From NCBI GenBank assembly GCA_964478715.1, contig CAYZIY010000001.1, forward strand, positions 149,196 through 213,195: a stretch of 64,000 nucleotides of DNA, in the 5' to 3' direction. Both the position numbers and the translations under genes were made by a program. Numbering within the stretch: position 1 is the first letter of the stretch; each line of letters starts with the position of its first letter. The DNA comes from an uncultured Planctomycetales bacterium (GTDB lineage Bacteria; Omnitrophota; Gorgyraeia; Zapsychrales; JBDRMG01). Of the stretch, positions 4,815 to 55,800 are shown piece by piece. The notes under the pieces are model-generated. The model worked only from the letters and a program-made list of their open reading frames with translations, was not told the DNA's origin and searched no databases.

Positions 4815-6728
4815 ATGAAAAATCTCTCGGCCAATAAACTTCTGGAAGAATTCATGAATACCGTTCCGGATGTTGTCTATATCAAAGACAAAAAGGGGCG
4901 GTTTTTGTTTGTCAATGAGGCCCATGCCCGCGGGGCAGGATGCAGGCCCAAAGAGCTGATCGGTAAAACCGATTATGATATCTTTCCGAAAGAAAAAGCC
5001 CGGCGCATGGCTAAAGACGATGAATTTGTTTTTACAAAAGGCAAGTCGATCATCGATAAAATCGAGCGTTCCACCCGCGTGGACGGGGTGGATAACTATG
5101 TGTCCACCACCAAGATACCCCGCTTTGATACCAAAAGGAGGGTGATCGGCTTGATCGGTATGACCCGCGATGTGACACGGCGTGTACGTCGCGAGCGTCT
5201 GCATCAGCGGCGGGCCCGCCGCGAGCAGAAAATCGAGATGCTTTCGGATTTCAATGAGATGAAAAGCGAATTCGTCTCCACCGTTTCGCATGAAATCAAA
5301 ACGCCTTTGGCCATCATCAAACAGCTCGTACTTTTGCTGTTAAATGAAAACGTGGGTAGTGTCAGCCAGCGTCAGAGAGAGGCCCTGGTTAAAGCGTCTA
5401 AAAATTTGGATCGCCTGCAAAGCACGGTCGATAAACTGCTGGATATTTCCAAAATCGAAGGCAAACGTTTGACCCTGCGCTATTCTTTGGTCAACATTAA
5501 TACCCTGCTTAAAGATTCCGAGAAGTTCTTCAAGGAATTGGCGGCGGAGAAAAATATCCGGCTGCGCTATCATTATCCCCAAAAAGAGGTGAATCTCTTT
5601 GTCGATGCCGACCGGATCGTTCAGATTTTAACCAATCTGGTCAACAATGCCATCAAATTCACCGAAGAGCACGGGCACATTGATGTCAAAATCGATGTCC
5701 TTGAGACCAAAGTGCGTATTGGGGTGATCGATTCCGGTGAGGGGATTGCGCCTTTGGATATTCCCCACGTCTTTGAAAAATTCACCCAGATGACCAAAGA
5801 CTCAAAGAAGGCCGGTCGGGGCATCGGTTTGGGGCTGTCCATTGTCCGAGAGCTCGTTGAGCGCCATGGCGGGGAAATATGGGTGGAATCTAAATTGGGG
5901 CTGGGCAGTCAATTTTATTTTACCCTGCCGCGTTTTTATACGGCCCAGCTTTTGGGAAAGCGTGTCAAAGACAATATCAAAAGATATCTGCAGAGAAGGC
6001 AGTCTGTCTGCCTGGTCAATATTTTGATTGTCAACTACGAGGAGTTCCGCAAGAAAATCGGCTTAAGCTCAGCGATAATGCAGCGGCATTGGAAAAAGCT
6101 GATCAAAGATGTTTGCGGAAGCCTTTCGCTATCCTCGGACAATATCAAAAACATCGCCGCCTTGAACATGGGCAAAGGCAAATACAGCGTGCTCTTTCCC
6201 AATATAAAGGAAGAGATCGTTAATGGATTTTGCCGCAGACTGCGTGATACCACCAAAAGATATTTTACTGAAAGAAAAATGGACGATGTTTTTATTGCTT
6301 TGGGAATCTTATCTTATCCTTCTACTTCAAAAGCAAAGACGCGGGACATGGCTCCGGAGATGGGCATTCGGGAAATGTATATCGGCGCCGAAGTGCGCCG
6401 GTTTAAGCGCATCAAATATAAAACAAAGCTCAATGTTATTTCGCCTTTAAAAAAGAAAGCGAAATGCGAAACTGTTGATCTTTCCCAGGGCGGCTTGTGT
6501 TTTATCGCTCCAATGAAATTGAAAACTGATGAGAAAATAACGGTGCGCCTGCGGATTTTGAAACGAAATAAATGGATCACCGCCAAAGGCCGGGTGTCCT
6601 GGATCAAGCAGTGCGATCCTCAGCCCGGGCGGCTGATCGATGTTTATCGAATCGGATTGGAGTTTATTGATCTTAAGGCAACAGACCGGAAAATGCTTTT
6701 AAAGGAGCTGAAGCTGTATTATGAGTAA
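4815..6728 (+). CDS. Sensor histidine kinase: PAS - HisKA - HATPase_c - degenerate GGDEF-like module - C-terminal PilZ domain
   Basis: H-box FVSTVSHEIKTPL; N/G-box NLVNNAIKFT / GRGIGLGLSIV; C-terminus has the PilZ motifs RRFKR (RxxxR) and DLSQGG (DxSxGG). Confidence 0.85.
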   Translation: MKNLSANKLLEEFMNTVPDVVYIKDKKGRFLFVNEAHARGAGCRPKELIGKTDYDIFPKEKARRMAKDDEFVFTKGKSIIDKIERSTRVDGVDNYVSTTKIPRFDTKRRVIGLIGMTRDVTRRVRRERLHQRRARREQKIEMLSDFNEMKSEFVSTVSHEIKTPLAIIKQLVLLLLNENVGSVSQRQREALVKASKNLDRLQSTVDKLLDISKIEGKRLTLRYSLVNINTLLKDSEKFFKELAAEKNIRLRYHYPQKEVNLFVDADRIVQILTNLVNNAIKFTEEHGHIDVKIDVLETKVRIGVIDSGEGIAPLDIPHVFEKFTQMTKDSKKAGRGIGLGLSIVRELVERHGGEIWVESKLGLGSQFYFTLPRFYTAQLLGKRVKDNIKRYLQRRQSVCLVNILIVNYEEFRKKIGLSSAIMQRHWKKLIKDVCGSLSLSSDNIKNIAALNMGKGKYSVLFPNIKEEIVNGFCRRLRDTTKRYFTERKMDDVFIALGILSYPSTSKAKTRDMAPEMGIREMYIGAEVRRFKRIKYKTKLNVISPLKKKAKCETVDLSQGGLCFIAPMKLKTDEKITVRLRILKRNKWITAKGRVSWIKQCDPQPGRLIDVYRIGLEFIDLKATDRKMLLKELKLYYE

Positions 6729-7104
6729 AAAAAAGATTCTTCTGGTGGATGATGAAGAGGATATGGTTTATGCTGTGCGTCTGCAGCTCGAATCCAACGG
6801 CTATCAGGTGAGCGTGGCGCAAGACGGTAAGACTGCTTTAGAAAAGGCCCGCAGCGAAAAACCAGATTGTATGATTCTTGATGTTATGCTTCCTAAGATC
6901 GACGGTTATAAAGTCTGCCGGATGTTAAAATTCGACGAGAAATATCAAAAGATCCCCGTTATTCTTTTTACGGCCAGGGGCCAGAAGGCCGATGAGCAGG
7001 TGGGCTATGAAGTCGGGGCCGATGCCTATTTGACCAAACCCTTTGATCCCGATAAACTGCTTTCAAAAATCAATGAGCTGCTTAAGACAAAAGATACCTC
7101 ATGA
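6721..7104 (+). CDS. Single-domain response regulator (CheY-like receiver)
   Basis: DDEED acidic pocket, phospho-acceptor D in MILDVMLP, conserved T and K (LFTARGQ...YLTKPF). Confidence 0.85.
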   Translation: MSKKKILLVDDEEDMVYAVRLQLESNGYQVSVAQDGKTALEKARSEKPDCMILDVMLPKIDGYKVCRMLKFDEKYQKIPVILFTARGQKADEQVGYEVGADAYLTKPFDPDKLLSKINELLKTKDTS

Positions 7105-8795
7105 GTGATTTTCCCCGTAGAGAAAGAGAATTGATCGATCTGCTTTTAAAAGAAAAGCTGATCAACGAAGACATGCTCAATCAGGCTCGAGAGGAGACCC
7201 AAAAGACGGGTTTAAGTGTGATGCGGGCTTTAGAGAAACTCGGCTTCGTGGTGGATGATAATCTTTTAAAGATTCAGGCCGAGGCGCTGGGCGTGCCCTA
7301 TATGGATGTGGCCGATTATCAGATCGACAAGCAGTTGATCAAGGCCCTTCCTAAGGATGGGGCTCAAAAATTCAAAGCCGTACCGCTTTTTAAAATCGGA
7401 CAGAATTTAACCGTGGGCATGCTCGATCCGCAGGATGTCCTGGCCTTGGATGAGATACGTAAAATCTCAGGCATGGAAACGGTCGAGCCCGTTTTGATTT
7501 CCGAGCGCGGTTTTCAGCGGGTGATCGATGTGTTTTACGGGGCGCAAGATTCTCTGCAGGCTTTGATCAGCGCTATTGAGCGCGATCAGAAAATCCAGAA
7601 GCAGGGACGCAGTCTCACCGAGATCGCCGAAGAGGCTCCGGTGATCAAATTGGTGAATGCGATTTTCTTAGAGGCCATGCGCTTAAGGGCCTCAGATATC
7701 CATATTGAACCCGAAGAAGATTATGTCCGGATTCGCTTAAGGATCGATGGGGTTTTAAGGGAGTTGATTCAGATGCCGAAATCGATTCAAAGTCTGGTGA
7801 CCTCACGCGTCAAAATTCTCTCGACGATGGATATTGCCGAGTCGCGCCGGCCGCAGGACGGGCGTATCCAGCTGGAGCTTGAGGACAAACAGCTTGACGT
7901 GAGGGTTTCCACATTTCCGACGATTCACGGCGAGAATGTGGTGATGCGTCTGCTTGAAAAATCTTCCGTTTTATTCGGGCTTAAAGATATCGGTTTTGGA
8001 GAAAAAGAACTTAAGGCCTTTGAGCAGGTGATCCAAAGGCCCTACGGGATTATTTTCATTACCGGTCCGACGGGAAGCGGTAAAACCACGACCCTTTATT
8101 CGGCGCTGACAACCATCAGCTCGATGGAAAAAAATATCGTCACAATCGAAGATCCGGTAGAATATGAGCTTCCCTTGATCCGCCAGACCCAGGTCAATCC
8201 TAAGGCGAATGTCACCTTCTCTAACGGTCTGCGCAGTATTTTGCGGCAGGATCCGGATGTGATTATGGTCGGGGAAATCCGCGATAAGGAAACCGCCGAG
8301 ATCGCGATTCAGGCGGCCTTGACTGGCCATCTGGTTTTCTCCACCTTGCATACCAATGATGCGACATCCGCCTTGACGCGCTTGATTGATATGGGTGTTG
8401 AGCCGTTTCTGATTGCCACCTCCACGATCGGTATTTTGGCACAGCGTCTGGTGCGCGAAATCTGTCCGAAATGTAAAGAAGAATTCAAGCCGCCCAAAGA
8501 ATTGCTTAAAGATCTGGGATTGAGGGTGAGCGCGAAATCCAAGGATTCCTTCTATAAAGGAAAGGGATGTCCGGCTTGTCATCAGACAGGCTATTTAGGG
8601 CGCAGCGGCATTTTTGAGCTGCTTTTGATCGATGAAGATATCCGCCGGATGACCGAAGAAAGAAAATCCACGGATGATATCAAGAAGAAGGCTCTTAGCC
8701 AAGAGATGATTACGCTTAAAGAAAACGGGCTTAAAAAAGCACGCCAAGGAATCACGACGATTGAGGAAGTGCTGAGAGTAACGGAGGTTGTATAA
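7101..8795 (+). CDS. GspE/PilB-family type II secretion / type IV pilus assembly ATPase (copy 1)
   Basis: N-terminal GspE_N-like domain, Walker A GPTGSGKTTT, Asp and His boxes, C-terminal tetracysteine CPKC...CPAC. Confidence 0.9.
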   Translation: MSDFPRRERELIDLLLKEKLINEDMLNQAREETQKTGLSVMRALEKLGFVVDDNLLKIQAEALGVPYMDVADYQIDKQLIKALPKDGAQKFKAVPLFKIGQNLTVGMLDPQDVLALDEIRKISGMETVEPVLISERGFQRVIDVFYGAQDSLQALISAIERDQKIQKQGRSLTEIAEEAPVIKLVNAIFLEAMRLRASDIHIEPEEDYVRIRLRIDGVLRELIQMPKSIQSLVTSRVKILSTMDIAESRRPQDGRIQLELEDKQLDVRVSTFPTIHGENVVMRLLEKSSVLFGLKDIGFGEKELKAFEQVIQRPYGIIFITGPTGSGKTTTLYSALTTISSMEKNIVTIEDPVEYELPLIRQTQVNPKANVTFSNGLRSILRQDPDVIMVGEIRDKETAEIAIQAALTGHLVFSTLHTNDATSALTRLIDMGVEPFLIATSTIGILAQRLVREICPKCKEEFKPPKELLKDLGLRVSAKSKDSFYKGKGCPACHQTGYLGRSGIFELLLIDEDIRRMTEERKSTDDIKKKALSQEMITLKENGLKKARQGITTIEEVLRVTEVV

Positions 8796-8833: not shown

Positions 8834-10048
8834 ATGCCTACTTATCAATATAAAGCCAGAACGCAGGACGGGAAATCCATCCAGGGACTCATGGGAGCCG
8901 ACAGCGAACAGGCCGTGGCCTCTAAATTAGAAGCCATGGGGCATTTGCCGATCGATATCCGCCTGCTTAAGGAAAAAACTGAGGGGCCGTCATTTTTCGA
9001 CCGTTTTAAAAGAGTCAGCTTTGAGGATTTGAATCTTTTTACCCGTCAGCTGGCCACGCTCCAGCGGGCGGGCATTCCGCTTTTAACCAGTCTCGGGTCT
9101 CTTAAAGAGCAGGCCGCCAATTATCAGCTAAAAAAAACAATCGAGGTGATTATCCGGGATGTCGAAGGCGGTTCTTCCTTATCGGGGGCGCTTGAGCGTC
9201 ATCCCGTTGTTTTTTCTGCCCTTTATGTCAATATGGTGCGCTCCGGAGAAATGTCGGGGCAACTGCCTGAGGTCTTAAACCGTTTGGCGACTTTAGGAGA
9301 ACACGACGAGAAAATCCGGCGGCAGATCAGCGCGGCGATGCGCTATCCGGCCATTGTGGTCGCGGCTATGATTATCGGCTTTATGGTTCTCATTGTTTTT
9401 GTTATGCCGCGTTTTATCAACATCTACGGGCAATACAATACCGCTTTGCCTATGCCGACGCAGATTATGATTGGTCTTAGTGTCATCACAAAAGAATTTT
9501 GGTGGCTTCTGTTGGGGCTTTTGGCTATTGCTATTTTTCTTTTTAAAAGTTATAAAGAATCAACGTCAGGCCGGAAAGTAACCGACGAGATCAAGCTGAA
9601 GATTCCTGTTTTCGGTCCTTTGATGCATAAACTTTTGATGTCGCGGTTTTGCCGGGCCACAGGGACGCTTTTAAAAAGCGGCGTGCCGATTTTACAGATA
9701 CTGGAATTAAACAAGGCAGGCGCGGGCAATGTGAAATTGGGCGAGACCATTGATCAGGTGATTCAAAGCGTGAAAGAAGGGAAGGGCATGGCGGAGCCGA
9801 TGAAACAAAGCGGATGCTTCCCGGTCATCGTTACCCAGATGGTCTCTGTCGGTGAGGAGAGCGGCCGGCTGGATGAATTGATGATTTATGCCTCGGATTA
9901 TTATGATCTTCTGATTGATCACACCATTAAAAATCTGGTGTCCTTGATTGAGCCGCTTCTGATCTTTGTGCTGGGCATTGCCGTTTTGTTTATGGCCCTG
10001 GGCATTTTTATGCCGATGTGGAATTTGATGCAATTGTTTAAAAGATAA
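8834..10048 (+). CDS. PilC/GspF-family inner-membrane platform protein (copy 1)
   Basis: Two repeated T2SSF domains, three TM segments, ~400 aa typical size. Confidence 0.88.
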   Translation: MPTYQYKARTQDGKSIQGLMGADSEQAVASKLEAMGHLPIDIRLLKEKTEGPSFFDRFKRVSFEDLNLFTRQLATLQRAGIPLLTSLGSLKEQAANYQLKKTIEVIIRDVEGGSSLSGALERHPVVFSALYVNMVRSGEMSGQLPEVLNRLATLGEHDEKIRRQISAAMRYPAIVVAAMIIGFMVLIVFVMPRFINIYGQYNTALPMPTQIMIGLSVITKEFWWLLLGLLAIAIFLFKSYKESTSGRKVTDEIKLKIPVFGPLMHKLLMSRFCRATGTLLKSGVPILQILELNKAGAGNVKLGETIDQVIQSVKEGKGMAEPMKQSGCFPVIVTQMVSVGEESGRLDELMIYASDYYDLLIDHTIKNLVSLIEPLLIFVLGIAVLFMALGIFMPMWNLMQLFKR

Positions 10049-10066
10049 AGAAATCGGTTTTTGTGT

Positions 10067-10095
10067 TTGTCAAAGATTTTCGGCTTGAGTATAAT
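10067..10095 (+). promoter_or_regulatory. Near-consensus sigma70 promoter (TTGTCA-17-TATAAT) driving the major pilin gene
   Basis: ttgtca at 10067-10072, 17-nt spacer, tataat at 10090-10095; followed by RBS aggagg at 10121-10126 and ATG at 10136. Confidence 0.5.
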
Positions 10096-10135
10096 GAAAA
10101 GTAGTTCAACAAACAATATAAGGAGGAGGGACGGT

Positions 10136-10558
10136 ATGAAGAGAGGTCGAAGCGGTTTTACATTGATCGAAATCATCATGGTGATCATTATTCTGGGCAT
10201 TCTGGCGGCGGTGGCGATTCCGCGGTTTACGAACTTGCAGCAAAATGCCTTGGATGCTGCCGAGCAAGGTGTTGTAGGTGGTGTGCGGGCGGGGATCTCA
10301 ACTGTCAGAGCAAGCAATTTGGCCAATGGGGTCACGCCGGCGATACCGGCCACATTAGACGGTCTTGCAGCTGGAACAACATGCTCAACAGCAAATCCCT
10401 GTTTTACCAATGTTCTCGACCAGGGCGGTATTACCGACGGGAATTGGATTAAGGTGAATGACACAACTTATACATCTCAAACGGGAGCCAATCAAAGTAC
10501 TTATACTTATAATCCTGCGACAGGAACATTTTTGTGTACCGCGGGCTCTTGTCCGTAA
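10136..10558 (+). CDS. Type IV pilin (probable major pilin), prepilin peptidase-dependent
   Basis: MKRGRSG/FTLIEIIMVIIILGILAAVAIP class-III signal with G-1, F+1, E+5; 4 Cys in the C-terminal half (two disulfide loops); Thr/Ser-rich. The ORF-track start at 10061 includes the promoter; 10136 has a proper RBS. Confidence 0.85.
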   Translation: MKRGRSGFTLIEIIMVIIILGILAAVAIPRFTNLQQNALDAAEQGVVGGVRAGISTVRASNLANGVTPAIPATLDGLAAGTTCSTANPCFTNVLDQGGITDGNWIKVNDTTYTSQTGANQSTYTYNPATGTFLCTAGSCP

Positions 10559-10580
10559 AATGATCGATGAGGGTTGCTAG

Positions 10581-10618
10581 CCCCCCCCGCACCAATTCAT
10601 TGGTGCGGGGGTTTTTTT
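10581..10618 (+). terminator. Rho-independent terminator after the pilin gene
   Basis: GC-rich stem cccccgcacca / tggtgcggggg with a 6-nt loop, followed by ttttttt. Confidence 0.75.
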
Positions 10619-10664
10619 GATCTTAATATTGTGAAAGATTGATTTTCTTATTAGAATAGAGACA

Positions 10665-11501
10665 ATGAAAAGGCTACACTCTCCAAAAGGCTTGACGCTG
10701 ATTGCCTCTGTTATGCTTCTGGTTTTCGCCTCCATCATCATTCTTGGATTAAGCACATTTGTTATTCAGCGTCTTTCACTGGGCAATACCCGGCTGATTC
10801 AGACTCAGGCTTTTTACGATGCCCGGGCCGGTATTTATCAGTCACTTTATGATTACCGTCTGCGTCAGATGACCGGAGACGGATTCTTCCATTGGGGCCG
10901 CACGGATCTGGATTCCGATAATTTTTATTATATTGCCGGCGACTGGTCCAATATTTTGCTGGTCGATACCACCGAAAGCCGTCTTAATGGCGCGAAGAAT
11001 CTTGAGGGTTGGACTTTAAAGAATGTGACGGATTTCACTGGCTTGACAATCACCGGGATGACGGTAACCTGGCAGGGAGGATGTAAATCCTGCCGGCTTC
11101 GGCGTATTCGTTTTAAAAATAGAAATTTCTGGCAAAGCGGTCAGGGTGAGTATTCTCCGGTCAAGGCCGTATTCAAAAGACCTTTTTCATTAAGAGATCC
11201 CGATCTTGTGGAGCGCAATTCTTTGGAATTTACCGGCGATATGTCCGGGGCGAGAATCGAGGCTGAATTTCTGATGGGAGATAGCACAAGTAAAACCGTG
11301 ACTCTTTATCCGGCTGGCGTCAGTAAGCCGACATTTACGATTGTCTCAATGGGGCGCACGATTGCGTCGCCTTTGTTTCGCACGATGGAGGCCGTGTATA
11401 ATCCCCAAGAGGACCGGATCGTTGATCAGAGAGAAACCGAGGAATTATTGAAAATTCCTCAATCAGGGGAGATGCCTGGTGAGATTATTCAGAGACCCTA
11501 A
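10665..11501 (+). CDS. PilX-N-domain-like pilus assembly / minor pilin-associated protein
   Basis: N-terminal hydrophobic segment GLTLIASVMLLVFASIIILGL followed by QAFYDARAGI, resembling the PilX N-terminal domain. Confidence 0.55.
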   Translation: MKRLHSPKGLTLIASVMLLVFASIIILGLSTFVIQRLSLGNTRLIQTQAFYDARAGIYQSLYDYRLRQMTGDGFFHWGRTDLDSDNFYYIAGDWSNILLVDTTESRLNGAKNLEGWTLKNVTDFTGLTITGMTVTWQGGCKSCRLRRIRFKNRNFWQSGQGEYSPVKAVFKRPFSLRDPDLVERNSLEFTGDMSGARIEAEFLMGDSTSKTVTLYPAGVSKPTFTIVSMGRTIASPLFRTMEAVYNPQEDRIVDQRETEELLKIPQSGEMPGEIIQRP

Positions 11502-11883
11502 CAGCGGCTTTAGTTTAATCGAATTGATCATGACCATTGTGGTGGTCGGTGTGATCGCGGTTCCCCTCGCCCTTTTGATCGGTCAATACATCGATAGTGT
11601 TTTTGATTCCCATGAATATTTGATTACTATGAATCTGGCCCGCATGGAAATGGAGCGGGTTTACAATATGCCCTTTGACCGGGTTGTCTCAACGACCTTT
11701 CCTCAATATCAGGGTTACGCCTACGAGCTGGAGCGCCGGGTCACGGTTGTGCCAACCACGCTTCCGGTGCCCGCGGATTCATCGTTGAAAATCATTAAGG
11801 TTTTTGTGCGTCGGCCGCGTTCGGCTGAAACCATCCTCGGACTGTCCACCCGCCTAACGGGAGTCTTGGCCTATGGTCCGTAA
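11479..11883 (+). CDS. Minor (pseudo)pilin with prepilin-type N-terminal cleavage/methylation domain
   Basis: NSG/FSLIELIMTIVVVGVIAV with E+5. Confidence 0.75.
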   Translation: MRLFRDPNSGFSLIELIMTIVVVGVIAVPLALLIGQYIDSVFDSHEYLITMNLARMEMERVYNMPFDRVVSTTFPQYQGYAYELERRVTVVPTTLPVPADSSLKIIKVFVRRPRSAETILGLSTRLTGVLAYGP

Positions 11884-12433
11884 AAAGGCGGCCGGTTTTA
11901 CTTTAATAGAGGCCATTATGGTGATGATCATCATCGCTGTTTTGGTCGGAGGTGGTGTTGTTTTCTTAACCGGTTTTGTGCAAAACACCTTGTTTGTTTC
12001 CCATCAGCTGAGCACGGATCTTTTGGCGTCGGATTGTATGGAAATAATGATCGAAGGCGACAGTCAAGCCAAGGGATTGCGGTTTTCCCGCTCTATTTCC
12101 TGGGCCAGAGATCATATGCTTTCTTTTATTAATCAAGACGGAGACAGAGTGATCTACATCTATTCTCCCTTTAACGGAAGGATTTACCGGTGGACGCCCT
12201 ATGTTTACGGTATCATTCCGTCTTATAATAACGCAAGTTCGCCCGTGACGATTCTTGTAAATAATGATAAACTATTTACTTACTATGATGAAAATGAGCA
12301 GATTACAAGCGATCCTCTGCGTATTCGGGCTGTCAAAATCGAATTTATTGCCCAAACCGGTTCTGGAGATTACGCGCAGGGGCAGGGACAAACGCATTTG
12401 ACTTCGGCGGTGGCCGTCAAAAGACTCGAATGA
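11873..12433 (+). CDS. Minor (pseudo)pilin with prepilin-type N-terminal domain
   Basis: AAG/FTLIEAIMVMIIIAVLVGG with E+5. Confidence 0.75.
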   Translation: MVRKKAAGFTLIEAIMVMIIIAVLVGGGVVFLTGFVQNTLFVSHQLSTDLLASDCMEIMIEGDSQAKGLRFSRSISWARDHMLSFINQDGDRVIYIYSPFNGRIYRWTPYVYGIIPSYNNASSPVTILVNNDKLFTYYDENEQITSDPLRIRAVKIEFIAQTGSGDYAQGQGQTHLTSAVAVKRLE

Positions 12434-14076
12434 TTCAAATAGAGACTATTCAACAAAAAATCTTGGAACTTAAAGATTCCCTCATCCGGGATTCGGGCCA
12501 GGTACTGGTGATCGATTTCAATGAGCTGTCGATCGAGATTGCCTGGTGCGCGACAGCCCCTGGCGCGTTATCGCTGTTGGCTTTTGATGAGGCCGAAATC
12601 GGCCAGAATCAGAAACAGAATGTGCCCAGTTTCATCAGCCAGTTTATCGAACGTCATCAGATCGATGAGAAAAATATCCTGATTACAATCAGTGACAGCG
12701 CCAGTTTTCATTTGAAACAGCTCAGTCTTCCGCTTTTGCCCGAACGGGAAATTACTAAAGCGGCCAAATGGCAGCTTAAAGATGAGGTTACCTTTGATCT
12801 CGAGGATGCGGTTCTCGCCTGGCAGCCGATTCGGGTGTTTAGCGATGAAAAAGGAGCCAAACGTCAGGATCTGACCTTTATCCTTGTTCAAAAGAAAATC
12901 ATTCAGCAATATATTTCTTGTGTGCTCGACTGCGGGCTGAATCCGCTTTCGATCAGCAACAGTTGTTTTGATTTTTCTTATCTTCTCGGTGAGCTGCCCC
13001 ACGCGGCAGCCAACTGTGCCATTCTCAATATTGAGAAAAATGATTCGCTTTTGACGTTTTATCTAGATCACAAAGTGTGCTTTATGCGGCGTTTACCGAT
13101 TTCAACCGAGAAAATGATTCGCGCTTTGATGGGAACGCTGGTTTCCGAAAAAGGAAAAATTTCCCTAACCCGCACCCAGGCCGATGATATCTTAGAGGCA
13201 ATGGGAATTCCGCTCTCAGAGTACGGGCCGGTCACCGCAGGGCTTGACTCCTCGCGGTTCATGTCTTTGATGCGCCCTTTGCTTGAGGCTTTGACGCGGG
13301 AGGTTAAGTTTTCTTTTGAATATTTCTCGTCCCGCTTTCAGATGAAGAAAATTGATCAGCTTTATGTGACCGGTCGCGGGGCGAGTGTCAAGAATCTTGA
13401 TCATTATATCGAGAAGGAATTATCCCTAACGGTTGACCGGCTGGGTTTGCCGAGCTCTCTGAAACTGGAATCGGAGGGAAAGCCGTGGAGTTTAAAGAAG
13501 CAGAATCAGATGACCAAGGTGATCAGCGCGGTGCTTTCGCGGGGCCGGGCTGTAAATTTACTGCCGCGAGAGCAGAGGTTAAAAAGAACAAAAGATATCC
13601 AGAAGATCGTTTTGCGGCTGATGGCAATCTCTTCTACGGCTATTTTTTTGATGATGTTTTTCATGATCCGGATTCAGATACGGGATTATCAAAACAGGGT
13701 CAAGATGGCGGAAATGCATTTGAAAACCGTCGGCCGAATCAATGATTTAACCAAGGATATCTTCGCTAAACAGCAGTTGATAGAGTTGATCCGAGGGCCG
13801 ACCGTCCCTGCCGAGGGGGTTCTTCGGGCTTTAAGCGATCTGACTCCGGCTGAAATTATTCTTAGGGAAATCGATCTTGATCAAAACAGCCAGATGCTTC
13901 GCATTAAGGGTGTGATAACCAGCAGCGATGAGCAGGCGCAGGGGATCTTGTTCAACTTTATTCGCGGCCTTGAGGAATCGCTGTTTTTTATTGAGGCGAG
14001 TTTGACTTCAGCTCAAAGAACAGGACTGGTGCAGGAATTTGAAATCAGTTGTGATTTAATTTCCCGAATGCCATGA
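12430..14076 (+). CDS. PilM-like actin-fold cytoplasmic domain fused to a TM segment and PilN-like periplasmic domain (GspL-like architecture)
   Basis: PilM signature region LPLLPEREITKAAKWQLKDEVTFDLEDAVLAWQPI; TM helix IVLRLMAISSTAIFLMMFFMI at about residue 395; periplasmic C-terminal domain. Confidence 0.7.
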   Translation: MIQIETIQQKILELKDSLIRDSGQVLVIDFNELSIEIAWCATAPGALSLLAFDEAEIGQNQKQNVPSFISQFIERHQIDEKNILITISDSASFHLKQLSLPLLPEREITKAAKWQLKDEVTFDLEDAVLAWQPIRVFSDEKGAKRQDLTFILVQKKIIQQYISCVLDCGLNPLSISNSCFDFSYLLGELPHAAANCAILNIEKNDSLLTFYLDHKVCFMRRLPISTEKMIRALMGTLVSEKGKISLTRTQADDILEAMGIPLSEYGPVTAGLDSSRFMSLMRPLLEALTREVKFSFEYFSSRFQMKKIDQLYVTGRGASVKNLDHYIEKELSLTVDRLGLPSSLKLESEGKPWSLKKQNQMTKVISAVLSRGRAVNLLPREQRLKRTKDIQKIVLRLMAISSTAIFLMMFFMIRIQIRDYQNRVKMAEMHLKTVGRINDLTKDIFAKQQLIELIRGPTVPAEGVLRALSDLTPAEIILREIDLDQNSQMLRIKGVITSSDEQAQGILFNFIRGLEESLFFIEASLTSAQRTGLVQEFEISCDLISRMP

Positions 14077-22832: not shown

Positions 22833-24641
22833 ATGGTTGAAAAAAGACGATTGCTGGGAGAATATTTAATCGAGCAGGGGATTATCAGTCCCGACCAGCT
22901 CAAGACGGCGATCGAGGAGGGCAAGCGCTCGAATCGCAAGATCGGGGACGTGCTGATCAAGCTGGGTTACGCCAAGGAAGACGATATTGTAAAGGCCTTA
23001 AGCGAGCAGTTGGGGATTCCCTTTATCGATGTCGACACCTACCAGTTTGATCCTGCAAGCGTGGCTTTGATTCCTTTTGATGCGGCTTTTAAGTTGCGCG
23101 TGATCGGGGTTTACCAAATCGCGAATTCTCTGACCGTGGCCATGACCGACCCGCTCAATGTCACGGTGATCGACGAGCTCGAGAAGCTGACGGGGCTGAC
23201 GATCAACCCTGTTTTTGCCACCCCGACGGGAATCAAAAAAGCGATTCAGAAATATTACTCTCGCGCGGGGTCCTCTGCGACCGGTTTGGGTGTGTCGGGG
23301 GGCTCGGGTACTGCGGCCACTTCGGACTCTGCGGAAACGCTGGACATTTCGGGTGCTTCAGGTACTTCGGGTGTTTCAGGAGTAGCAGACGCGACTGGCG
23401 AGGCTGGCGCGGCTAAAACGGGCGGAATCTCCGCCGGCCGAAGCGACGACTTACCGAAACTAAGAGAACAGGCCGCCCAGGCGCCTGTGATCAAGCTGGT
23501 CAATAAAATCATCGAAGACGCCGTAACGCTTAAGGCCAGCGACGCGCACTTAGAGCCGCAGGACAAGCGATTTCTCTGCCGCTACCGGGTCGACGGAATT
23601 TTGCAGGATTTTATTGAACTGAAAAAAGACCTGGAGCTGGCCACGATCTCACGAATCAAAATCATGGCCAACATCAACATTGCCGAAAAGCGCCTGCCTC
23701 AGGACGGCCGGATTCAAACTCAGGTGAAAGGCAAAGAGATCGATTTGAGAGTGGCCACCTTTCCTACTATTCACGGAGAGCACGTGGCGATTCGCGTTTT
23801 AGATAAATCGACCGGGATACTCAGTTTAGACGAACTGGGTCTGAAAGGGGATCTCTTGAGACAATTTCAGTCTTTGATCACCAAACCGCACGGGCTGTTT
23901 CTGGTGACCGGTCCCACCGGAAGCGGAAAATCCACGACCTTGTATTCGGTTTTGAACACCGTCAATGACAAAAAGAAAAATATTATCACGCTCGAAGATC
24001 CGGTGGAGTACACGATTGAGTATATTCATCAGTCGCAGGTCAATGTAAAAGCCGGTTTGACTTTTGCCGTGGGTTTGCGCTCGATTGTCCGCCTGGATCC
24101 CGACATTATTATGATCGGAGAAATCCGGGACCGGGAGACGGCCGAAATCGCCATTCACGCGGCTTTAACCGGGCACCTGGTTTTCTCGACGCTTCACACA
24201 AATGACGCGCCCAGCGCCTGCGCCCGTCTGATCAATATCGGCTTGGAGTCTTATCTGTTGGCCAGTTCCCTGACCGGCGTGGTGGCCCAGCGGCTGGTCA
24301 GAAAATTGTGCGATCAATGCAAAAAACCTCACAAGCCTGAGCCCCGGGAAATTGAAAGTCTCGGGATGAATCCGTCCGATTTTCAAAACGCACAGATCTT
24401 CCGGGAAAACGGTTGCAAGGCCTGCCGGCAGACCGGCTACAGCGGACGGATCGGTATCTTTGAGATTCTTGTTCCCAATGAAAAAATACGCACACTGATT
24501 ACCCAAAAGGCCTCTTCCAAAGACCTGATGAAAGAAGCCAGGACCTTAAATATGACAACCCTGCTGGAAGACGGTATAGAAAAAATCCGCCTAGGAATCA
24601 CATCGATTTCGGAAATTTTAAGGATTACCGAAGAATCATAA
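22833..24641 (+). CDS. GspE/PilB-family secretion ATPase (copy 2) with MshEN-like N-terminal tandem motifs and a G/S/A/T-rich linker
   Basis: Walker A GPTGSGKSTT, tetracysteine CDQC...CKAC; N-terminal tandem RLLGEYLIEQGII...Q and RKIGDVLIKLGYA...Q motifs; low-complexity insert about 23265-23450. Confidence 0.9.
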   Translation: MVEKRRLLGEYLIEQGIISPDQLKTAIEEGKRSNRKIGDVLIKLGYAKEDDIVKALSEQLGIPFIDVDTYQFDPASVALIPFDAAFKLRVIGVYQIANSLTVAMTDPLNVTVIDELEKLTGLTINPVFATPTGIKKAIQKYYSRAGSSATGLGVSGGSGTAATSDSAETLDISGASGTSGVSGVADATGEAGAAKTGGISAGRSDDLPKLREQAAQAPVIKLVNKIIEDAVTLKASDAHLEPQDKRFLCRYRVDGILQDFIELKKDLELATISRIKIMANINIAEKRLPQDGRIQTQVKGKEIDLRVATFPTIHGEHVAIRVLDKSTGILSLDELGLKGDLLRQFQSLITKPHGLFLVTGPTGSGKSTTLYSVLNTVNDKKKNIITLEDPVEYTIEYIHQSQVNVKAGLTFAVGLRSIVRLDPDIIMIGEIRDRETAEIAIHAALTGHLVFSTLHTNDAPSACARLINIGLESYLLASSLTGVVAQRLVRKLCDQCKKPHKPEPREIESLGMNPSDFQNAQIFRENGCKACRQTGYSGRIGIFEILVPNEKIRTLITQKASSKDLMKEARTLNMTTLLEDGIEKIRLGITSISEILRITEES

Positions 24642-37483: not shown

Positions 37484-37505
37484 GCCTTAATCAAGGAATG
37501 GAGTT

Positions 37506-52815: not shown

Positions 52816-55800
52816 ATGGCTGCCATTACAAAAAAGAATAATAGTTTAAAAGCCGCATACCCCCGCTATGTTCTCGTTCTTCTCTGCGGAGCGATTGTTC
52901 TGATTTTTAGCGTTTCCGGGTTGGTCATTACACAAAGTTTAAGAAGTCATGCGTTAAAAGAAATAGCGGATGAAAGCAAGGCGGCGATTGGGGCCTTAAG
53001 CACAGGTCTAATTCGGGAGTTAAGAGAAACACAAAAAGGAGCTCAAAATCTGGCCGGTTCTCCCTGGGTTCCTCCGGTGCTTATCAGGGGAAACCCTCAG
53101 GATATCAAAAGAGTCAACCGGGTTCTTGACCGCTATAACCGTTCTTTCGATGCGTCGGTTTGTTATTTATTGAATCAGCAGGGCATCACCGTTGCTTCTT
53201 CAAACCGCAATACGAGCGAAAGCTTTATCGGCAAAGACTACAGTTTTCGACCTTATTTCCAAAAGGCCATAGGGGGCAAAGCGGGAAGCTATTTTGCTCT
53301 GGGGATCACATCTAAAAAAAGAGGGCATTATGCCTCTTATCCCGTGATATCTGGCGATCAAAAGATTATCGGTGTTGTTGTGATTAAAGATGAGATAGAT
53401 TATTTCGCCGATGCTTTCAGGAAATTTAAGCATTGCTATCTGATTGATCCTAACGGCATCATTTTTCTGGGGAGCCGTTCCCATTTTGTGCTCAAATCAC
53501 TTTGGCCGGTTAGCCAAAAAGCCAGAGACGAACTGAAAAAGACACAGCAGTTCGGAGAAGGACCTTTTGAGCATTTATTGGACCAAGAATATAAAGACGG
53601 ACAAAAGGTGCAATTTCTCAACCAGACTTGGCTGGTCAATCGCAACTATATTAACGACCAGGGTTGGTCGGTGCTTATGTTGAGTTCAACCAAGGGGGCA
53701 AGACTCTATGGTCTTCTCGGGATTTTGACCACCGCTTTTATTATTATTCTGTTGATCGTATTTCTCGGGATTCTTTTCTACATGGATAAATCGCGCCAAA
53801 AAGTTCTGGAAAGTGAAGAAAAGTATCGCGAATTAGTCCAAAATGCCAATAGTATTATTCTGCGCTTAGACAGCGAAGGACGCATTGTTTTTATCAATGA
53901 ATATGCCCAAAACTTTTTTGGCTATATGGAATCCGAAATTTTTGGGAAATCTGTCGTGGGAACGATTGTCCCCGAGCAAGACAGCGAGGGGATCGATGTG
54001 GCTCAAGTGATTGAGAATCTTTTAAAAGACACAGAGCGTTACAAATATAATGAAAACGAGAATATCAAAAGAAACGGAGATCGTGTCTGGGTGGCCTGGA
54101 CCAACCGGGTCATCAAGAATGAGCCTGCCGGAAAAAACGAGATTCTTTGCGTCGGCACAGACATCACCCAAAACCGTCGGGCCTCTGAGCATATTCGCCG
54201 ATTATCGACAGCCGTTGAGCAATCGCCCAGTGTTATTGCCATAACGGATCTCAATGGAAATCTTGAATACGTCAATCCGAAATTTTGCGTGTCTACAGGC
54301 TATTCTCTAGAGGAAGCCAAGGGGCAGAATCCACGGATTCTTAAAAGCGGCGAACAGCCAAAAGAGGTGTATAAAGATATGTGGGAGAAAATCGCCAAAG
54401 GCGAAGAATGGAGAGGCGAGTTTCATAATAAGCGCAAAGACGGCAGTCTTTACTGGGAACTGGCCTCGATTTCTCCTATTCGCAATGCCCAGGGGGAAAT
54501 TACGCATTATCTCAAGGTGGCCGAGGACATCACCGAGCGAAAAAGGGCCGAACAGATGTTGGCCGAGACCAAAGAAGCTCTGGAGCAGCAGACTTGGGGA
54601 TTAAAGAAAACCAATGAAACACTCAAGCTCCTCTATAAAGAGCTCGAGGAGAAGAATGCCGAATTAAAAAAACTTGATCGGCTTAAAAGTGATTTTGTCT
54701 CAACCGTCTCGCATGAGCTGCGCACTCCTCTGGCGATTACGACCGAAGGCATCAGCCTGGTGATCGATCAAATTGCAGGCCCTATTAACGACAAGCAAAG
54801 GAATCTCCTTCACACATCCAAAGAAAATTTGGTGCGTCTAAACAAAATCATCAATGATCTTCTGGATATTTCGAAAATTGAATCTGGACGCCTGGAGCTC
54901 GGTAAAAGCATAACAGATATATCAAGAATTATTCAAAAAACGGTAAATTCTTATCAAACGGTAGCCGACCCAAAAAAGATCACAATCCGGACACATTTTC
55001 CCGAAGAGCGCATTATTCTTTTTATCGATCAAGACAAAATTATCCAGGCGCTCAATAATTTGATTTACAATGCGATTAAGTTTACCAAAGAGCAGGGCGT
55101 CATTGATATAACGCTTGCTTCTCAAGAGACCGAAGTTGTTATCAGTATCAAAGATAATGGAGTCGGTATTTCGCATGAAGATATGAAAAAACTCTTCAGC
55201 AAATTCCAGCAGTTTGGACGCACCCACGGTCCCGGCGCCAAGGGAACGGGTTTGGGTCTTTCGATCACCAAGGCGTTGGTCGAACTGCACGGGGGGCGAA
55301 TTTGGGCTGAAAGTGCGCTGGGCGAGGGAACGACGTTTTCATTTACTCTGCCGAATTACAAGAAAGTGATCGGTGAATTCGAGGAAAATCTATCTGATGA
55401 TATCGAGGAAGCTCAGCAGAGTAAAAAGGATATGACGCTTCTTCTGATGGATGTCGTCAATTATCAAAAGATTGTCGATCGCTTTGATGAATATGTTTTA
55501 GCTGATACGATGAATAAAATATTTTCAATCATTGAGCAGATCGTATCCCGGCCCAAAGACAGAGCCCTTATCATCGATCAACATACGATTTATATCTCTT
55601 TGCCGCAGACCAGCAAAAGCGGAGGCAATGCGGTGATCCGGCGGATCAGGGAGGAGATCAACGCGCAGTCTTTTATGGTGGAGAAAGAAGATGTATCTGT
55701 TTATATGCGATTTAGTATGGCTGTGGCCCCTGCGCAGGGCACAGACAGAGAAACGTTGATTCAACATGCCAGGAAGAAATTATTGCAGCCGCGAACGGTT

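What the first reader, a model, noticed from the sequence alone, without database searches (positions are those of the whole stretch)
4815..6728. Histidine kinase with a C-terminal PilZ domain and a degenerate GGDEF-like module, next to a CheY-like receiver and the first pilus ATPase
The 637-aa protein has PAS, HisKA (H-box SHEIKTPL) and HATPase_c domains. A ~125-aa module follows (nt about 6000-6375) that resembles a GGDEF domain with the GG(D/E)EF turn replaced (MGKGKY). The protein ends in a clear PilZ domain, with RRFKR and DLSQGG at the canonical RxxxR / DxSxGG positions. A kinase whose output is coupled to a c-di-GMP receptor domain is uncommon. Here it is immediately followed by a single-domain receiver (6721) and a GspE/PilB ATPase (7101). 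This suggests c-di-GMP-gated phospho-control of pilus extension.
Basis: partly seen in the sequence, partly recalled or inferred. Interest (0 to 1): 0.65.

Follow-up and report, generated by a model that had tools for sequence, protein, structure and literature searches.

The report
Kinase fused to c-di-GMP sensor, pilus operon

Summary
ORF 4815-6728 encodes PAS-HisKA-HATPase_c, a roughly 128-aa middle module, and a canonical PilZ domain (Pfam 51.8 bits against a cutoff of 22.5).

- **PilZ:** RxxxR and DxSxxG are kept in all 42 related loci. The AlphaFold2 model matches c-di-GMP-bound PilZ structures.
- **Middle module:** Pfam does not detect it. It has a GGDEF/cyclase fold and is homologous (hhalign 96.4%, E 1.3e-9) to Pfam-recognisable GGDEF domains at the same position in related kinases. 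It is catalytically dead: GGDEF is replaced by GKGKY, the metal-binding Asp by Asn, and there is no I-site.
- **Family:** The gene belongs to a family found here only in MAGs labelled Omnitrophota or other PVC taxa, never characterised, and named only "ATP-binding protein" or "PAS domain protein". In its orthogroup the order kinase, receiver, PilB, PilC, pilins is invariant (13/13), with overlapping stop and start codons.
- **PilB1:** The adjacent ATPase lacks the MshE-type c-di-GMP motif. A second PilB in the window has it.

Most likely mechanism (inferred): c-di-GMP bound at the junction between the dead GGDEF domain and PilZ shifts the kinase/phosphatase balance towards the receiver, which modulates PilB1.

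I class it as a new variant of known kinds, of moderate interest.

The parts
4815..6728 (+). Whole gene: soluble PAS-HisKA-HATPase_c-psiGGDEF-PilZ sensor histidine kinase, 637 aa (psiGGDEF = degenerate, inactive GGDEF-like domain)
   Evidence: ORF list and translation. Pfam. An identical protein exists in public data (P0001, NCBI/Logan, 280-kb contig) and more than 120 full-length homologue clusters share the architecture.
4860..5189 (+). PAS sensor domain (aa 16-125). It is highly conserved in the family and its ligand is unknown.
   Evidence: Pfam PAS_4 1.5e-18, PAS_9, PAS. Many invariant columns, including P18, Y22, K24, G28, T99, K100, P102.
5259..5462 (+). HisKA dimerisation/phospho-acceptor domain (aa 149-216). 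H159 lies in SHEIKTPL, and the adjacent E160..T163 matches the HisKA phosphatase motif H-E-x-x-T.
   Evidence: Pfam HisKA 5.3e-14. S158, H159, E160, T163 and P164 are invariant. The phosphatase-motif reading rests on established knowledge of HisKA kinases.
5604..5930 (+). HATPase_c catalytic ATP-binding domain (aa 264-372) with N, G1, F and G2 boxes intact
   Evidence: Pfam 3.8e-31. N274, N278, D306, G308, G310, F320, F323, G336, G338 and G340 are invariant.
5940..6323 (+). Degenerate, catalytically dead GGDEF-like (palm/cyclase-fold) module, aa 376-503. The GG(D/E)EF equivalent is G453-K454-G455-K456-Y457.
   Evidence: AF2 pLDDT 85.6, pTM 0.78. Foldseek hits to GGDEF domains: GcbC 5euh E 1.2e-4, FimX 3hva TMq 0.68, LapD 3pjw TMq 0.73. 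hhalign against Pfam-recognised GGDEF modules of related kinases: 96.4%, E 1.3e-9. No Pfam GGDEF hit in this protein itself.
6360..6725 (+). Canonical PilZ domain (aa 516-637): beta-barrel plus C-terminal helix
   Evidence: Pfam PilZ 51.8 bits. AF2 C-terminal model pLDDT 82.9. The top 39 Foldseek PDB hits are all PilZ-domain structures, most of them solved with c-di-GMP bound (MotI, Alg44, YcgR, BcsA, MapZ, MrkH).
6396..6410 (+). RxxxR c-di-GMP-binding motif (RRFKR, aa 528-532), in the linker between psiGGDEF and the PilZ barrel
   Evidence: R528 and R532 are invariant. Present in 42/42 loci.
6477..6494 (+). [D/N]xSxxG c-di-GMP-binding motif (DLSQGG, aa 555-560)
   Evidence: S557 and G560 are invariant; D555 is >=90% conserved. 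Present in 42/42 loci.
6721..7104 (+). Stand-alone CheY-like receiver (127 aa) with D10, D11, D54, T84 and K106 all present. Its start codon overlaps the kinase stop by 8 nt.
   Evidence: Pfam Response_reg 2.6e-31. Sequence. Junction TATGAGTAA with AAGGAG upstream. Orthologue at 61-76% identity directly downstream in about 26/37 species loci.
7101..8795 (+). PilB/GspE-family assembly ATPase (PilB1) with an MshEN-fold N-domain that lacks the c-di-GMP motif. ATGA overlap with the receiver stop.
   Evidence: Pfam T2SSE 3.9e-143, MshEN 8.7e-18. NCBIfam PilB and GspE scores fall just below the equivalog cutoffs, and NF053729 does not hit. No match to the relaxed MshEN motif in PilB1 or any of the ~16 distinct linked PilB sequences scanned. 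Junction.
8834..10048 (+). PilC/GspF platform protein of the same operon
   Evidence: Pfam T2SSF 2.4e-59, two repeats. Conserved downstream of PilB1 orthologues.
10061..14076 (+). Pilin-like genes (N_methyl) and a PilM-PilN fusion, which complete the first pilus gene set
   Evidence: Pfam N_methyl hits at 10061, 11479 and 11873; PilM_2 plus PilN in 12430-14076. The same order is seen in L001.

Best explanation
This is a cytoplasmic two-component sensor kinase that takes two inputs. One is an unknown ligand or condition sensed by the N-terminal PAS domain. [quoted passage not shown]

The dead GGDEF-like module between the ATP-binding domain and PilZ no longer makes or binds nucleotide. It serves as the rigid partner domain against which PilZ closes. 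The RxxxR arm lies in the linker between psiGGDEF and the PilZ barrel. c-di-GMP binding there would therefore clamp the two domains together, as it does in two-domain PilZ proteins such as YcgR and PlzD. That would change the freedom of the adjacent catalytic domain and so shift the kinase/phosphatase balance at H159.

The phosphoryl group goes to the co-translated single-domain CheY-like receiver. The receiver has no output domain, so it must act by protein-protein contact. The most likely target is the PilB1 motor or its platform, encoded immediately downstream, which would tune pilus assembly.

What is shown:
- the domain identities;
- intact catalytic and ligand-binding residues;
- a dead GGDEF domain;
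- operon structure and its conservation;
- absence of the MshE-type c-di-GMP site in PilB1.

What is inferred:
- c-di-GMP binding;
- its effect on kinase output, whose direction is unknown;
- the receiver's target.
For: - **Kinase and receiver look active.** H-box, N, G1, F and G2 boxes are invariant. The receiver has the full D-D-D-T-K set.
- **PilZ is canonical.** Pfam 51.8 bits. Fold matches to c-di-GMP-bound PilZ structures with probability 1.0. RxxxR..[DN]xSxxG is kept in 42/42 loci, although the C-terminal region is only 29-45% identical.
- **The middle module is a GGDEF relic under structural constraint only.** Fold; hhalign 96.4%. The conserved positions are hydrophobic residues or Gly (L392, N402, N407, F411, G455, Y483, F493, G497, Y501), with no conserved acidic or basic site.
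- **Operon.** An 8-nt and a 4-nt stop/start overlap join kinase, receiver and PilB1. No terminator-like site lies on the + strand between them; the only + strand terminator-like site in the scan lies inside the kinase ORF near nt 4957. Kinase, receiver, PilB, PilC order holds in 13/13 loci of the orthogroup.
- **PilB1 lacks the c-di-GMP site.** PilB1 and all the linked PilB sequences scanned miss the relaxed MshEN 24-residue motif of PMC5013675. PilB1 does not hit NCBIfam NF053729, whereas PilB2 in the same window does at 65 bits. So the c-di-GMP sensor available to pilus set 1 is the kinase's PilZ.
- **Precedents for c-di-GMP acting on kinase signalling.** The HapZ PilZ adaptor blocks SagS phosphotransfer; c-di-GMP also acts on CckA, ShkA and RavS.
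Against: - No biochemical data exist for any family member.
- The two-domain model has pTM of only 0.56, so the orientation of psiGGDEF relative to PilZ is not predicted with confidence. No full-length model was made, so no contact between PilZ and DHp/CA was examined.
- In the more distant branches the kinase-receiver pair occurs without adjacent pilus genes: L003, L024, L030, L036 and L037, each with about 5.5-6 kb of downstream sequence. Some members have neither a receiver nor PilB next to them (L018-L020, L035, L042). The pilus link is therefore a property of one orthogroup, not of the architecture.
- The conserved C-terminal tail ELKLYYE cannot be used as evidence for a protein contact. 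Its codons carry the Shine-Dalgarno sequence and the start codon of the receiver.
- No active diguanylate cyclase was found in the 64-kb window; both GGDEF modules there are degenerate.
Confidence: 0.45

Rival explanations
1. PilZ is a docking or output domain rather than an input to the kinase. When c-di-GMP-bound (or constitutively), PilZ binds the degenerate MshEN/N1 domain of PilB1. This would resemble Xanthomonas and Pseudomonas, where PilZ binds the PilB N-terminal domain. It would place the kinase at the pilus base, so that PAS-controlled phosphorylation of the receiver happens locally. Kinase activity itself would not be changed by c-di-GMP.
For: PilZ-PilB N1D complexes are established in X. 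citri (PMC8389850, PMC11656802). PilB1 keeps the MshEN fold (Pfam 8.7e-18) but not the nucleotide motif, which leaves a surface free for a protein partner. The charged C-terminal helix of PilZ domains is a known interaction surface (10.1101/814665), and it is present in the model (H247-261).
Against: The Xanthomonas and Pseudomonas PilZ that binds PilB has lost the c-di-GMP motifs, whereas here they are invariant. Branches of the family without an adjacent PilB keep the same PilZ. No interaction was modelled.
Confidence: 0.2
2. PilZ acts on the phosphotransfer step in cis, as HapZ does in trans on SagS. c-di-GMP-bound PilZ would bind the stand-alone receiver, or occlude the DHp docking site, and so sequester or release the receiver rather than change autophosphorylation.
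For: HapZ, a single-domain PilZ, binds a REC domain and inhibits SagS phosphotransfer, more strongly with c-di-GMP. The receiver is the most conserved gene of the cluster: 61-76% identity, against 29-45% for the kinase C-terminus. That is consistent with several binding partners.
Against: There is no direct evidence. It is mechanistically close to the best explanation and cannot be separated from it by sequence analysis.
Confidence: 0.2
3. The adjacency to pilus genes reflects transcriptional or unrelated co-regulation only. The kinase-receiver pair would control some other process, for example through a further unlinked partner, or with the receiver acting as a phosphate sink. The pilus operon would simply share a promoter in one lineage.
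For: About half of the species loci have the kinase, with or without the receiver, but no PilB within about 6 kb. The receiver resembles generic PhoB-, PleD- and CheY-type receivers and is not a PilG/PilH-specific family.
Against: Synteny is 13/13 in the orthogroup despite roughly 40-60% protein divergence, and codons overlap at both junctions. Paralogous psiGGDEF kinases followed by receivers and a PilB recur elsewhere (L004, L022, L040), which suggests a repeated functional association.
Confidence: 0.1
4. The PilZ domain does not bind c-di-GMP, or binds another nucleotide. Together with psiGGDEF it would be only a structural appendage.
For: Non-binding PilZ domains exist. No diguanylate cyclase was seen in the window.
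Against: Non-binding PilZ domains have lost RxxxR and DxSxxG. Here both are invariant across the family, and the fold matches ligand-bound canonical PilZ structures. GGDEF and PilZ genes are reported as common in Omnitrophota (10.1101/2023.11.21.568195).
Confidence: 0.05

Closest known systems
HapZ (PA2799)-SagS of Pseudomonas aeruginosa: a PilZ adaptor that controls a histidine-kinase phosphorelay
   Same: [quoted passage not shown]
   Different: HapZ is a separate single-domain protein that binds the REC domain of a hybrid kinase. Here PilZ is covalently fused to the C-terminus of the kinase behind a dead GGDEF domain. The partner is a stand-alone receiver and the downstream genes are pilus genes.
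Kinases that bind c-di-GMP directly: CckA and ShkA (Caulobacter), RavS (Xanthomonas)
   Same: c-di-GMP switches or tunes the output of a histidine kinase.
   Different: Those kinases bind c-di-GMP through the CA domain, a pseudo-receiver or the kinase core, not through a PilZ domain. None carries a GGDEF relic plus PilZ.
Chemoreceptors with a C-terminal PilZ domain (Tlp1 and Aer of Azospirillum brasilense, Cbp1 of Azorhizobium)
   Same: A sensory transducer has a cis-fused C-terminal PilZ, so that c-di-GMP modulates signalling to a motility apparatus.
   Different: Those are methyl-accepting receptors acting through CheA on flagella. Here the PilZ sits on the kinase itself and the linked apparatus is a type IV pilus or T2SS-like machine.
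FimX-PilZ-PilB (Xanthomonas and Pseudomonas) and MshE/PilB MshEN-type c-di-GMP control of type IV pilus assembly
   Same: c-di-GMP control converges on the PilB assembly ATPase. A degenerate GGDEF domain (FimX) and a PilZ-fold protein take part. FimX's degenerate GGDEF is among the best structural matches of the middle module (3hva).
   Different: FimX senses c-di-GMP through a degenerate EAL domain, and its partner PilZ does not bind c-di-GMP. No kinase or phosphotransfer is involved. In MshE-type systems the ATPase binds c-di-GMP itself, whereas PilB1 here lacks that motif.
SgmT of Myxococcus xanthus: a histidine kinase carrying a degenerate GGDEF domain (recalled from my own knowledge; not checked here)
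   Same: A histidine kinase with a C-terminal, catalytically inactive GGDEF domain is linked to c-di-GMP sensing.
   Different: SgmT is reported to bind c-di-GMP through the RxxD I-site of its GGDEF domain. The module here has no I-site and no conserved polar residues, and the sensing role is taken by a separate PilZ domain.
YcgR/PlzD-type two-domain PilZ proteins
   Same: The RxxxR arm lies in the linker between an N-terminal partner domain and the PilZ barrel, so ligand binding can clamp the two domains. These are structural matches (5y6f, 2rde, 1yln).
   Different: The partner domain there is PilZN (itself PilZ-like). Here it is a GGDEF-fold relic attached to a kinase.

Membership tests
[quoted passage not shown] | Match to the family HMM above the curated threshold | tested here: met
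   51.8 bits against gathering score 22.5, E 1.1e-13, aa 527-629 covering profile positions 2-97 of 102.
[quoted passage not shown] | RxxxR motif N-terminal to the barrel and [D/N]xSxxG motif in the barrel | tested here: met
   RRFKR (528-532) and DLSQGG (555-560). Invariant or nearly so in 36 homologues and present in 42/42 loci.
[quoted passage not shown] | Six- to eight-stranded beta-barrel followed by a C-terminal alpha-helix | tested here: met
   In the AF2 model the barrel region has block-mean pLDDT mostly 82-96. It shows strands E141-E245 and helix 247-261. The top 39 Foldseek PDB hits are PilZ-domain structures.
[quoted passage not shown] | Actual binding of c-di-GMP | not testable with these tools
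   Needs ITC, DRaCALA or MST on the purified domain.
GGDEF domain / diguanylate cyclase, PF00990 | Match to the family HMM | tested here: not met
   No GGDEF hit for the full protein at E<=0.1 or for aa 376-527 at E<=1. A profile of the module against PDB sequences gives only E 0.59 to a cyclase (3ign), in register at the signature hairpin.
GGDEF domain / diguanylate cyclase, PF00990 | Palm-like b-a-a-b-b-a-b core fold shared with class III cyclases | tested here: met
   AF2 pLDDT 85.6. Foldseek probability 1.0 to GGDEF domains, adenylyl cyclases and Cas10 palm domains, TMq 0.55-0.73. The module is short: the usual alpha4 helix is replaced by a disordered linker.
GGDEF domain / diguanylate cyclase, PF00990 | Homology to bona fide family members, traced through intermediate sequences | tested here: met
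   hhalign of the module family (A4) against seven Pfam-recognised GGDEF modules of related kinases (A6; five of them score 26-54 bits, above the 23.8 cutoff): probability 96.4%, E 1.3e-9, 118 columns.
GGDEF domain / diguanylate cyclase, PF00990 | GG(D/E)EF active-site turn and the metal-binding Asp of beta1 | tested here: not met
   The turn is G453-K454-G455-K456-Y457, with family consensus xxGK[CY]; a few homologues keep AGGEF or NGEF. By my hand alignment to the PleD motif (from memory), the metal-binding Asp is replaced by the nearly invariant N407. It is therefore not an active cyclase.
GGDEF domain / diguanylate cyclase, PF00990 | RxxD inhibitory (I-) site that lets degenerate GGDEF domains act as c-di-GMP receptors | tested here: not met
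   There is no RxxD upstream of the hairpin and no conserved Arg or Asp in the module. The conserved columns are hydrophobic residues, Gly or Asn.
HisKA-family sensor histidine kinase | H-box His with the adjacent E/DxxT/N motif, and N, G1, F and G2 boxes in the CA domain | tested here: met
   HisKA 5.3e-14 and HATPase_c 3.8e-31. H159, E160, T163, N274, N278, D306, G308, G310, F320, F323, G336, G338 and G340 are invariant. No NCBIfam equivalog reaches its cutoff.
Phospho-accepting receiver (CheY-like REC) | Acidic pocket (DD), phospho-acceptor Asp, and conserved Thr/Ser and Lys | tested here: met
   D10, D11, D54, T84 and K106 read from the sequence. Response_reg 108.5 bits.
MshEN-type c-di-GMP-binding N-domain, tested on the neighbouring PilB1 | Two tandem 24-residue motifs RLGxx(L/V/I)(L/V/I)xxG(L/V/I)(L/V/I)xxxxLxxxLxxQ (PMC5013675) | tested here: not met
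   The Pfam MshEN fold is present. Even the relaxed published motif has no match in PilB1 or in any of the ~16 distinct linked PilB sequences scanned. NCBIfam NF053729 does not hit PilB1 but hits PilB2 of the same window at 65.2 bits against a cutoff of 38.

The most novel reading that the evidence does not exclude
In Omnitrophota, c-di-GMP control of one pilus machine has moved off the motor ATPase, whose MshEN site has decayed, and onto a dedicated histidine kinase. That kinase's kinase/phosphatase switch would be thrown by a cis-fused PilZ domain clamping onto a fossil GGDEF domain. The signal would reach the PilB motor as a phosphorylated CheY-like protein. This would be the first PilZ-gated histidine kinase, and a direct phosphorelay from c-di-GMP to a pilus motor, in a phylum of ultra-small, possibly predatory or host-dependent bacteria.
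Probability: 0.3. Interest if true: 0.65.

Novelty: new variant of a known kind. Interest (0 to 1): 0.5.

Why it matters
Every part is a known signalling module, but this combination has not been described or studied. The combination is a histidine kinase, a fossil GGDEF domain and a ligand-competent PilZ, translationally coupled to a CheY-like receiver and a PilB motor.

Known ways for c-di-GMP to reach kinases use trans-acting PilZ adaptors or ad hoc sites on the kinase. Known ways for it to reach type IV pili use the MshEN site on the ATPase, FimX, or riboswitches.

A cis PilZ-gated kinase would add a simple route that can be tested in vitro, because the protein is soluble and no membrane domain was detected. 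It would also give a handle on how Omnitrophota regulate the pili thought to mediate their attachment to other cells. Omnitrophota are uncultured, so regulation cannot be studied genetically.

The work also shows that a large, mostly Omnitrophota expansion of kinases carries degenerate GGDEF domains. Public annotation names some of these "diguanylate cyclase", which the degenerate active sites of the members I read contradict.

Tried and rejected
- **Pfam GGDEF on the protein and on the isolated module:** no hit.
- **BLASTP of the module against the paralogue's GGDEF:** nothing significant (E 0.65).
- **hmmsearch of the module profile against PDB sequences:** only a marginal cyclase hit (E 0.59).
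- **Word-indexed homologue search with the C-terminal half of P0171:** found nothing. One capped search was wasted.
- **The conserved tail ELKLYYE as a partner-binding peptide:** rejected as evidence, because its codons hold the Shine-Dalgarno sequence and start codon of the overlapping receiver gene.
- **ORF 4426-4737 upstream as a small regulator like the MerR-like gene upstream in L001:** no Pfam hit and no similarity. It is probably spurious.
- **An I-site-type c-di-GMP receptor role for the dead GGDEF domain (as in PelD, PopA, SgmT):** rejected, because there is no RxxD and no conserved charged residues.
- **Literature searches for any described histidine kinase-PilZ fusion:** none found in the held library. 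This is absence in that library only.
Full report
**The observation.** The window carries a 637-aa ORF at 4815..6728 on the + strand. Pfam finds PAS_4 (aa 16-125, 1.5e-18), HisKA (149-216, 5.3e-14), HATPase_c (264-372, 3.8e-31) and PilZ (527-629, 1.1e-13; 51.8 bits against a gathering score of 22.5). The next two genes are a 127-aa single-domain receiver (6721..7104, Response_reg 2.6e-31) and a PilB/GspE-family ATPase (7101..8795, T2SSE 3.9e-143 plus MshEN 8.7e-18). After them come PilC, three pilin-like genes and a PilM-PilN fusion. Pfam does not call a GGDEF domain between HATPase_c and PilZ, so that part of the claim needed separate testing.

**The family.** A search of public proteins returned an identical protein (NCBI/Logan, 280-kb contig). 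It also returned more than 120 full-length clusters at 45-55% identity, all with the same Pfam architecture. Where named, they come from Candidatus Omnitrophota MAGs and are called only "ATP-binding protein" or "PAS domain-containing protein". In a 36-sequence alignment the following are invariant: the phospho-acceptor His and its neighbours (S158, H159, E160, T163, P164); the N, G1, F and G2 boxes; and the PilZ residues R528, R532, S557 and G560. D555 is at least 90% conserved. A scan of one genome per GTDB species found 37 loci. Twenty-nine are labelled Omnitrophota or Omnitrophica. Eight are TPA MAGs labelled "uncultured Planctomycetales/Planctomycetia". A profile of the C-terminal 262 aa against 1.84 billion cluster representatives gave 47 clusters at E<=1e-30 and 223 at E<=1e-10.

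**The PilZ domain.** An AlphaFold2 model of aa 376-637 (pLDDT 82.9) shows a beta-barrel with a C-terminal helix. Its top 39 PDB matches by Foldseek are PilZ-domain structures, most of them solved with c-di-GMP bound: MotI, Alg44, YcgR, BcsA, MapZ, MrkH and PlzD (E down to 2.5e-6, probability 1.0). All 42 related loci I collected keep RxxxR followed by [DN]xSxxG, although the C-terminal region is only 29-45% identical. This is a canonical, ligand-competent PilZ by every criterion testable in silico.

**The middle module.**
- Modelled alone, aa 376-505 reaches pLDDT 85.6 and pTM 0.78, with topology helix, b1, a1, a2, b2, b3, a3, b4.
- Its best PDB matches are GGDEF domains: GcbC 5euh (1.2e-4), ImcA, the degenerate GGDEF of FimX (3hva, TMq 0.68) and LapD (3pjw, TMq 0.73). 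Class III adenylyl cyclases and Cas10 palm domains follow.
- Sequence alone is nearly blind to this. BLASTP to a paralogue's GGDEF gives nothing. The module profile hits a cyclase in PDB only at E 0.59, though in register at the signature hairpin.
- The bridge comes from more distant relatives found in the representative search. P0171, P0177, P0197, P0172 and P0190 are HisKA-HATPase_c-GGDEF-PilZ proteins whose GGDEF scores 26-54 bits, above Pfam's cutoff of 23.8.
- A profile of the window's module family against seven such Pfam-recognised modules gives hhalign probability 96.4%, E 1.3e-9 over 118 columns.
- The GG(D/E)EF turn corresponds to G453-K454-G455-K456-Y457. Some close homologues still read AGGEF, NGEF or RGEC. 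The distant relatives read SGEC, TGEC, KGEC or DSTEC.
- By my hand alignment to the PleD motif (from memory), the metal-binding Asp of b1 is a nearly invariant Asn (N407). There is no RxxD I-site. The conserved columns are hydrophobic residues, Gly or Asn.

The module is therefore a true GGDEF relic, catalytically dead, and not an I-site receiver.

**Wider context of the fossil GGDEF.** The same window holds a second kinase at 52816..56148: dCache-PAS-PAS-HisKA-HATPase_c-GGDEF (2.2e-10)-REC. Its turn reads DQHTI. A search with P0171 shows a large expansion of HisKA-HATPase_c-GGDEF kinases that end in nothing, a receiver or PilZ. It is mostly in Omnitrophota, with single hits labelled Deltaproteobacteria and Verrucomicrobiae. 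Public records name some of them "diguanylate cyclase". The fossil GGDEF is thus a lineage-typical adaptor placed between the catalytic domain and a C-terminal signalling domain.

**Gene neighbourhood.**
- The kinase stop and the receiver start overlap by 8 nt (TATGAGTAA), with AAGGAG 13 nt upstream.
- The receiver stop and the PilB1 start overlap as ATGA.
- No terminator-like site lies on the + strand between these genes. The only + strand terminator-like site in the scan lies inside the kinase ORF near nt 4957. Promoter-like sites lie in the 210-bp gap upstream of the kinase (weak evidence).
- Across the 37 species loci, the kinase core is always fused to the C-terminal module. A receiver at 61-76% identity follows directly in about 26 loci. 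PilB plus PilC follow in about 18.
- The subgroup to which the window's gene belongs is marked by the C-terminal tail ..ELKLYYE. It has receiver and PilB downstream in 13 of 13 loci.
- More distant branches have kinase and receiver without pilus genes (L003, L024, L030, L036, L037), or the kinase alone (L018-L020, L035, L042).
- The conserved tail is not evidence of a protein contact, because its codons encode the ribosome-binding site and start codon of the receiver.

**c-di-GMP and the two PilB ATPases.** The published MshEN motif is two copies of RLGxx(L/V/I)(L/V/I)xxG(L/V/I)(L/V/I)xxxxLxxxLxxQ. A relaxed search form is also published (PMC5013675). PilB1 and all of the ~16 distinct PilB sequences linked to this kinase family that I scanned lack even the relaxed form. 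PilB1 also does not hit NCBIfam NF053729 ("cyclic di-GMP-binding domain, MshE-related"). The window's second ATPase, PilB2 (22833..24641), hits it at 65.2 bits against a cutoff of 38. So in pilus gene set 1, the only recognisable c-di-GMP sensor is the PilZ on the kinase.

**Mechanism.**
- *Shown:* an apparently active HisKA kinase with the H-E-x-x-T arrangement typical of bifunctional kinase/phosphatases. A phosphorylatable stand-alone receiver with D10, D11, D54, T84 and K106. A ligand-competent PilZ whose RxxxR arm lies in the linker to a rigid fossil domain. Translational coupling to a PilB motor that lacks its own c-di-GMP site.
- *Inferred:* c-di-GMP binding clamps PilZ onto the fossil GGDEF, as in two-domain PilZ proteins of the YcgR/PlzD type. 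This alters the mobility of the neighbouring CA domain and hence the kinase/phosphatase balance. The receiver, having no output domain, acts by contact, most plausibly on PilB1 or its platform.
- *Unknown:* the direction of the effect.
- *Rivals:* PilZ as a docking device onto the PilB1 N-domain, as PilZ binds PilB in Xanthomonas. PilZ as a cis version of HapZ acting on the receiver or the phosphotransfer step. Coincidental operon membership. A non-binding PilZ.

**Comparison with known systems.** The closest functional analogues are:
- HapZ-SagS, where a PilZ adaptor controls a kinase phosphorelay in trans;
- CckA, ShkA and RavS, where c-di-GMP binds kinases at other sites;
- the PilZ-bearing chemoreceptors Tlp1, Aer and Cbp1, which carry a cis PilZ on a transducer;
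- FimX-PilZ-PilB and MshE, through which c-di-GMP acts on PilB.

[quoted passage not shown] Six full-text searches found no description of a histidine kinase-PilZ fusion. An Omnitrophota preprint notes abundant small pilZ genes and GGDEF domains in the phylum, so c-di-GMP signalling is plausible there (10.1101/2023.11.21.568195).

**Verdict.** The domain interpretation is correct, including the difficult GGDEF call. The functional model is reasonable and somewhat strengthened, but it is untested. It is a new variant built from known parts, conserved across a candidate phylum and biochemically tractable. It is interesting to c-di-GMP and two-component specialists, but not a categorically new kind of system.

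Noticed in passing
window 52816-56148 (+): A second kinase with a fossil GGDEF: a 1110-aa dCache-PAS-PAS-HisKA-HATPase_c-GGDEF (Pfam 2.2e-10)-REC hybrid. Its signature turn reads DQHTI, so it is degenerate. Kinase-GGDEF-X is a recurrent architecture in this organism and phylum.
   Followed up: partly
window 22833-24641 (+) versus 7101-8795 (+): The two PilB-family ATPases differ in c-di-GMP competence. PilB2 hits NCBIfam NF053729 (MshE-related c-di-GMP motif) at 65 bits and has near-canonical tandem motifs. PilB1, next to the PilZ kinase, has the MshEN fold but no motif.
   Followed up: yes
window 24656-29800 (+) and 29784-30212 (+): A 1714-aa protein with three DUF2341 repeats and PA14 domains follows PilB2 directly and is itself followed by a pilin-like (N_methyl) gene. 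It could be a pilus-associated adhesin or tip protein of the second pilus/T2SS-like gene set.
   Followed up: no
window 12430-14076 (+): A 548-aa fusion of PilM-like and PilN-like parts lies in pilus gene set 1. Separate PilM (16344), PilN (17667), PilO (18264) and a secretin (19207) follow in set 2. The fusion is conserved in L001.
   Followed up: no
window 6702-6728: The last eight codons of the kinase (KELKLYYE*) contain the Shine-Dalgarno AAGGAG and the ATG of the overlapping receiver gene. The strongly conserved protein tail of this orthogroup may therefore reflect dual coding rather than a protein function.
   Followed up: partly
L004 1-5875 (- strand of the locus): In another Omnitrophota MAG, a dCache-HAMP-PAS-kinase ending in a degenerate GGDEF (GLGEF; Pfam 1.2e-6) is followed by four single-domain receivers and a MshEN-PilB. 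It is transcribed divergently from the PilZ-kinase orthologue. This is a second, multi-receiver wiring of kinase to PilB.
   Followed up: partly
window 15536-16384 (+): A ParA/MinD-like ATPase (AAA_31 2.4e-53) sits between the two pilus gene sets, immediately upstream of and overlapping PilM. It may be a positioning ATPase for the machine.
   Followed up: no
window 35285-38375 (+): Two ParA/NUBPL-like P-loop proteins with inserted 4Fe-4S ferredoxin motifs (35285-36124 and 37506-38375) flank a pyridine nucleotide-disulphide oxidoreductase (36125-37483). This is unrelated to the finding.
   Followed up: no
loci L006, L014, L019, L023, L025, L030, L037, L040: Contigs that carry clear orthologues of this otherwise Omnitrophota-labelled kinase are titled "uncultured Planctomycetales/Planctomycetia bacterium" in TPA assemblies. 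This may be a placeholder or wrong taxonomic label; I did not check it.
   Followed up: no
public records of P0272, P0276, P0289 and similar: Related HisKA-HATPase_c-GGDEF-PilZ proteins are annotated "diguanylate cyclase" in source databases. The family members whose sequences I read (P0171, P0172, P0177, P0190, P0197) have degenerate active-site turns (DSTEC, KGEC, TGEC, SGEC, SDDEY), so that name is probably wrong.
   Followed up: partly
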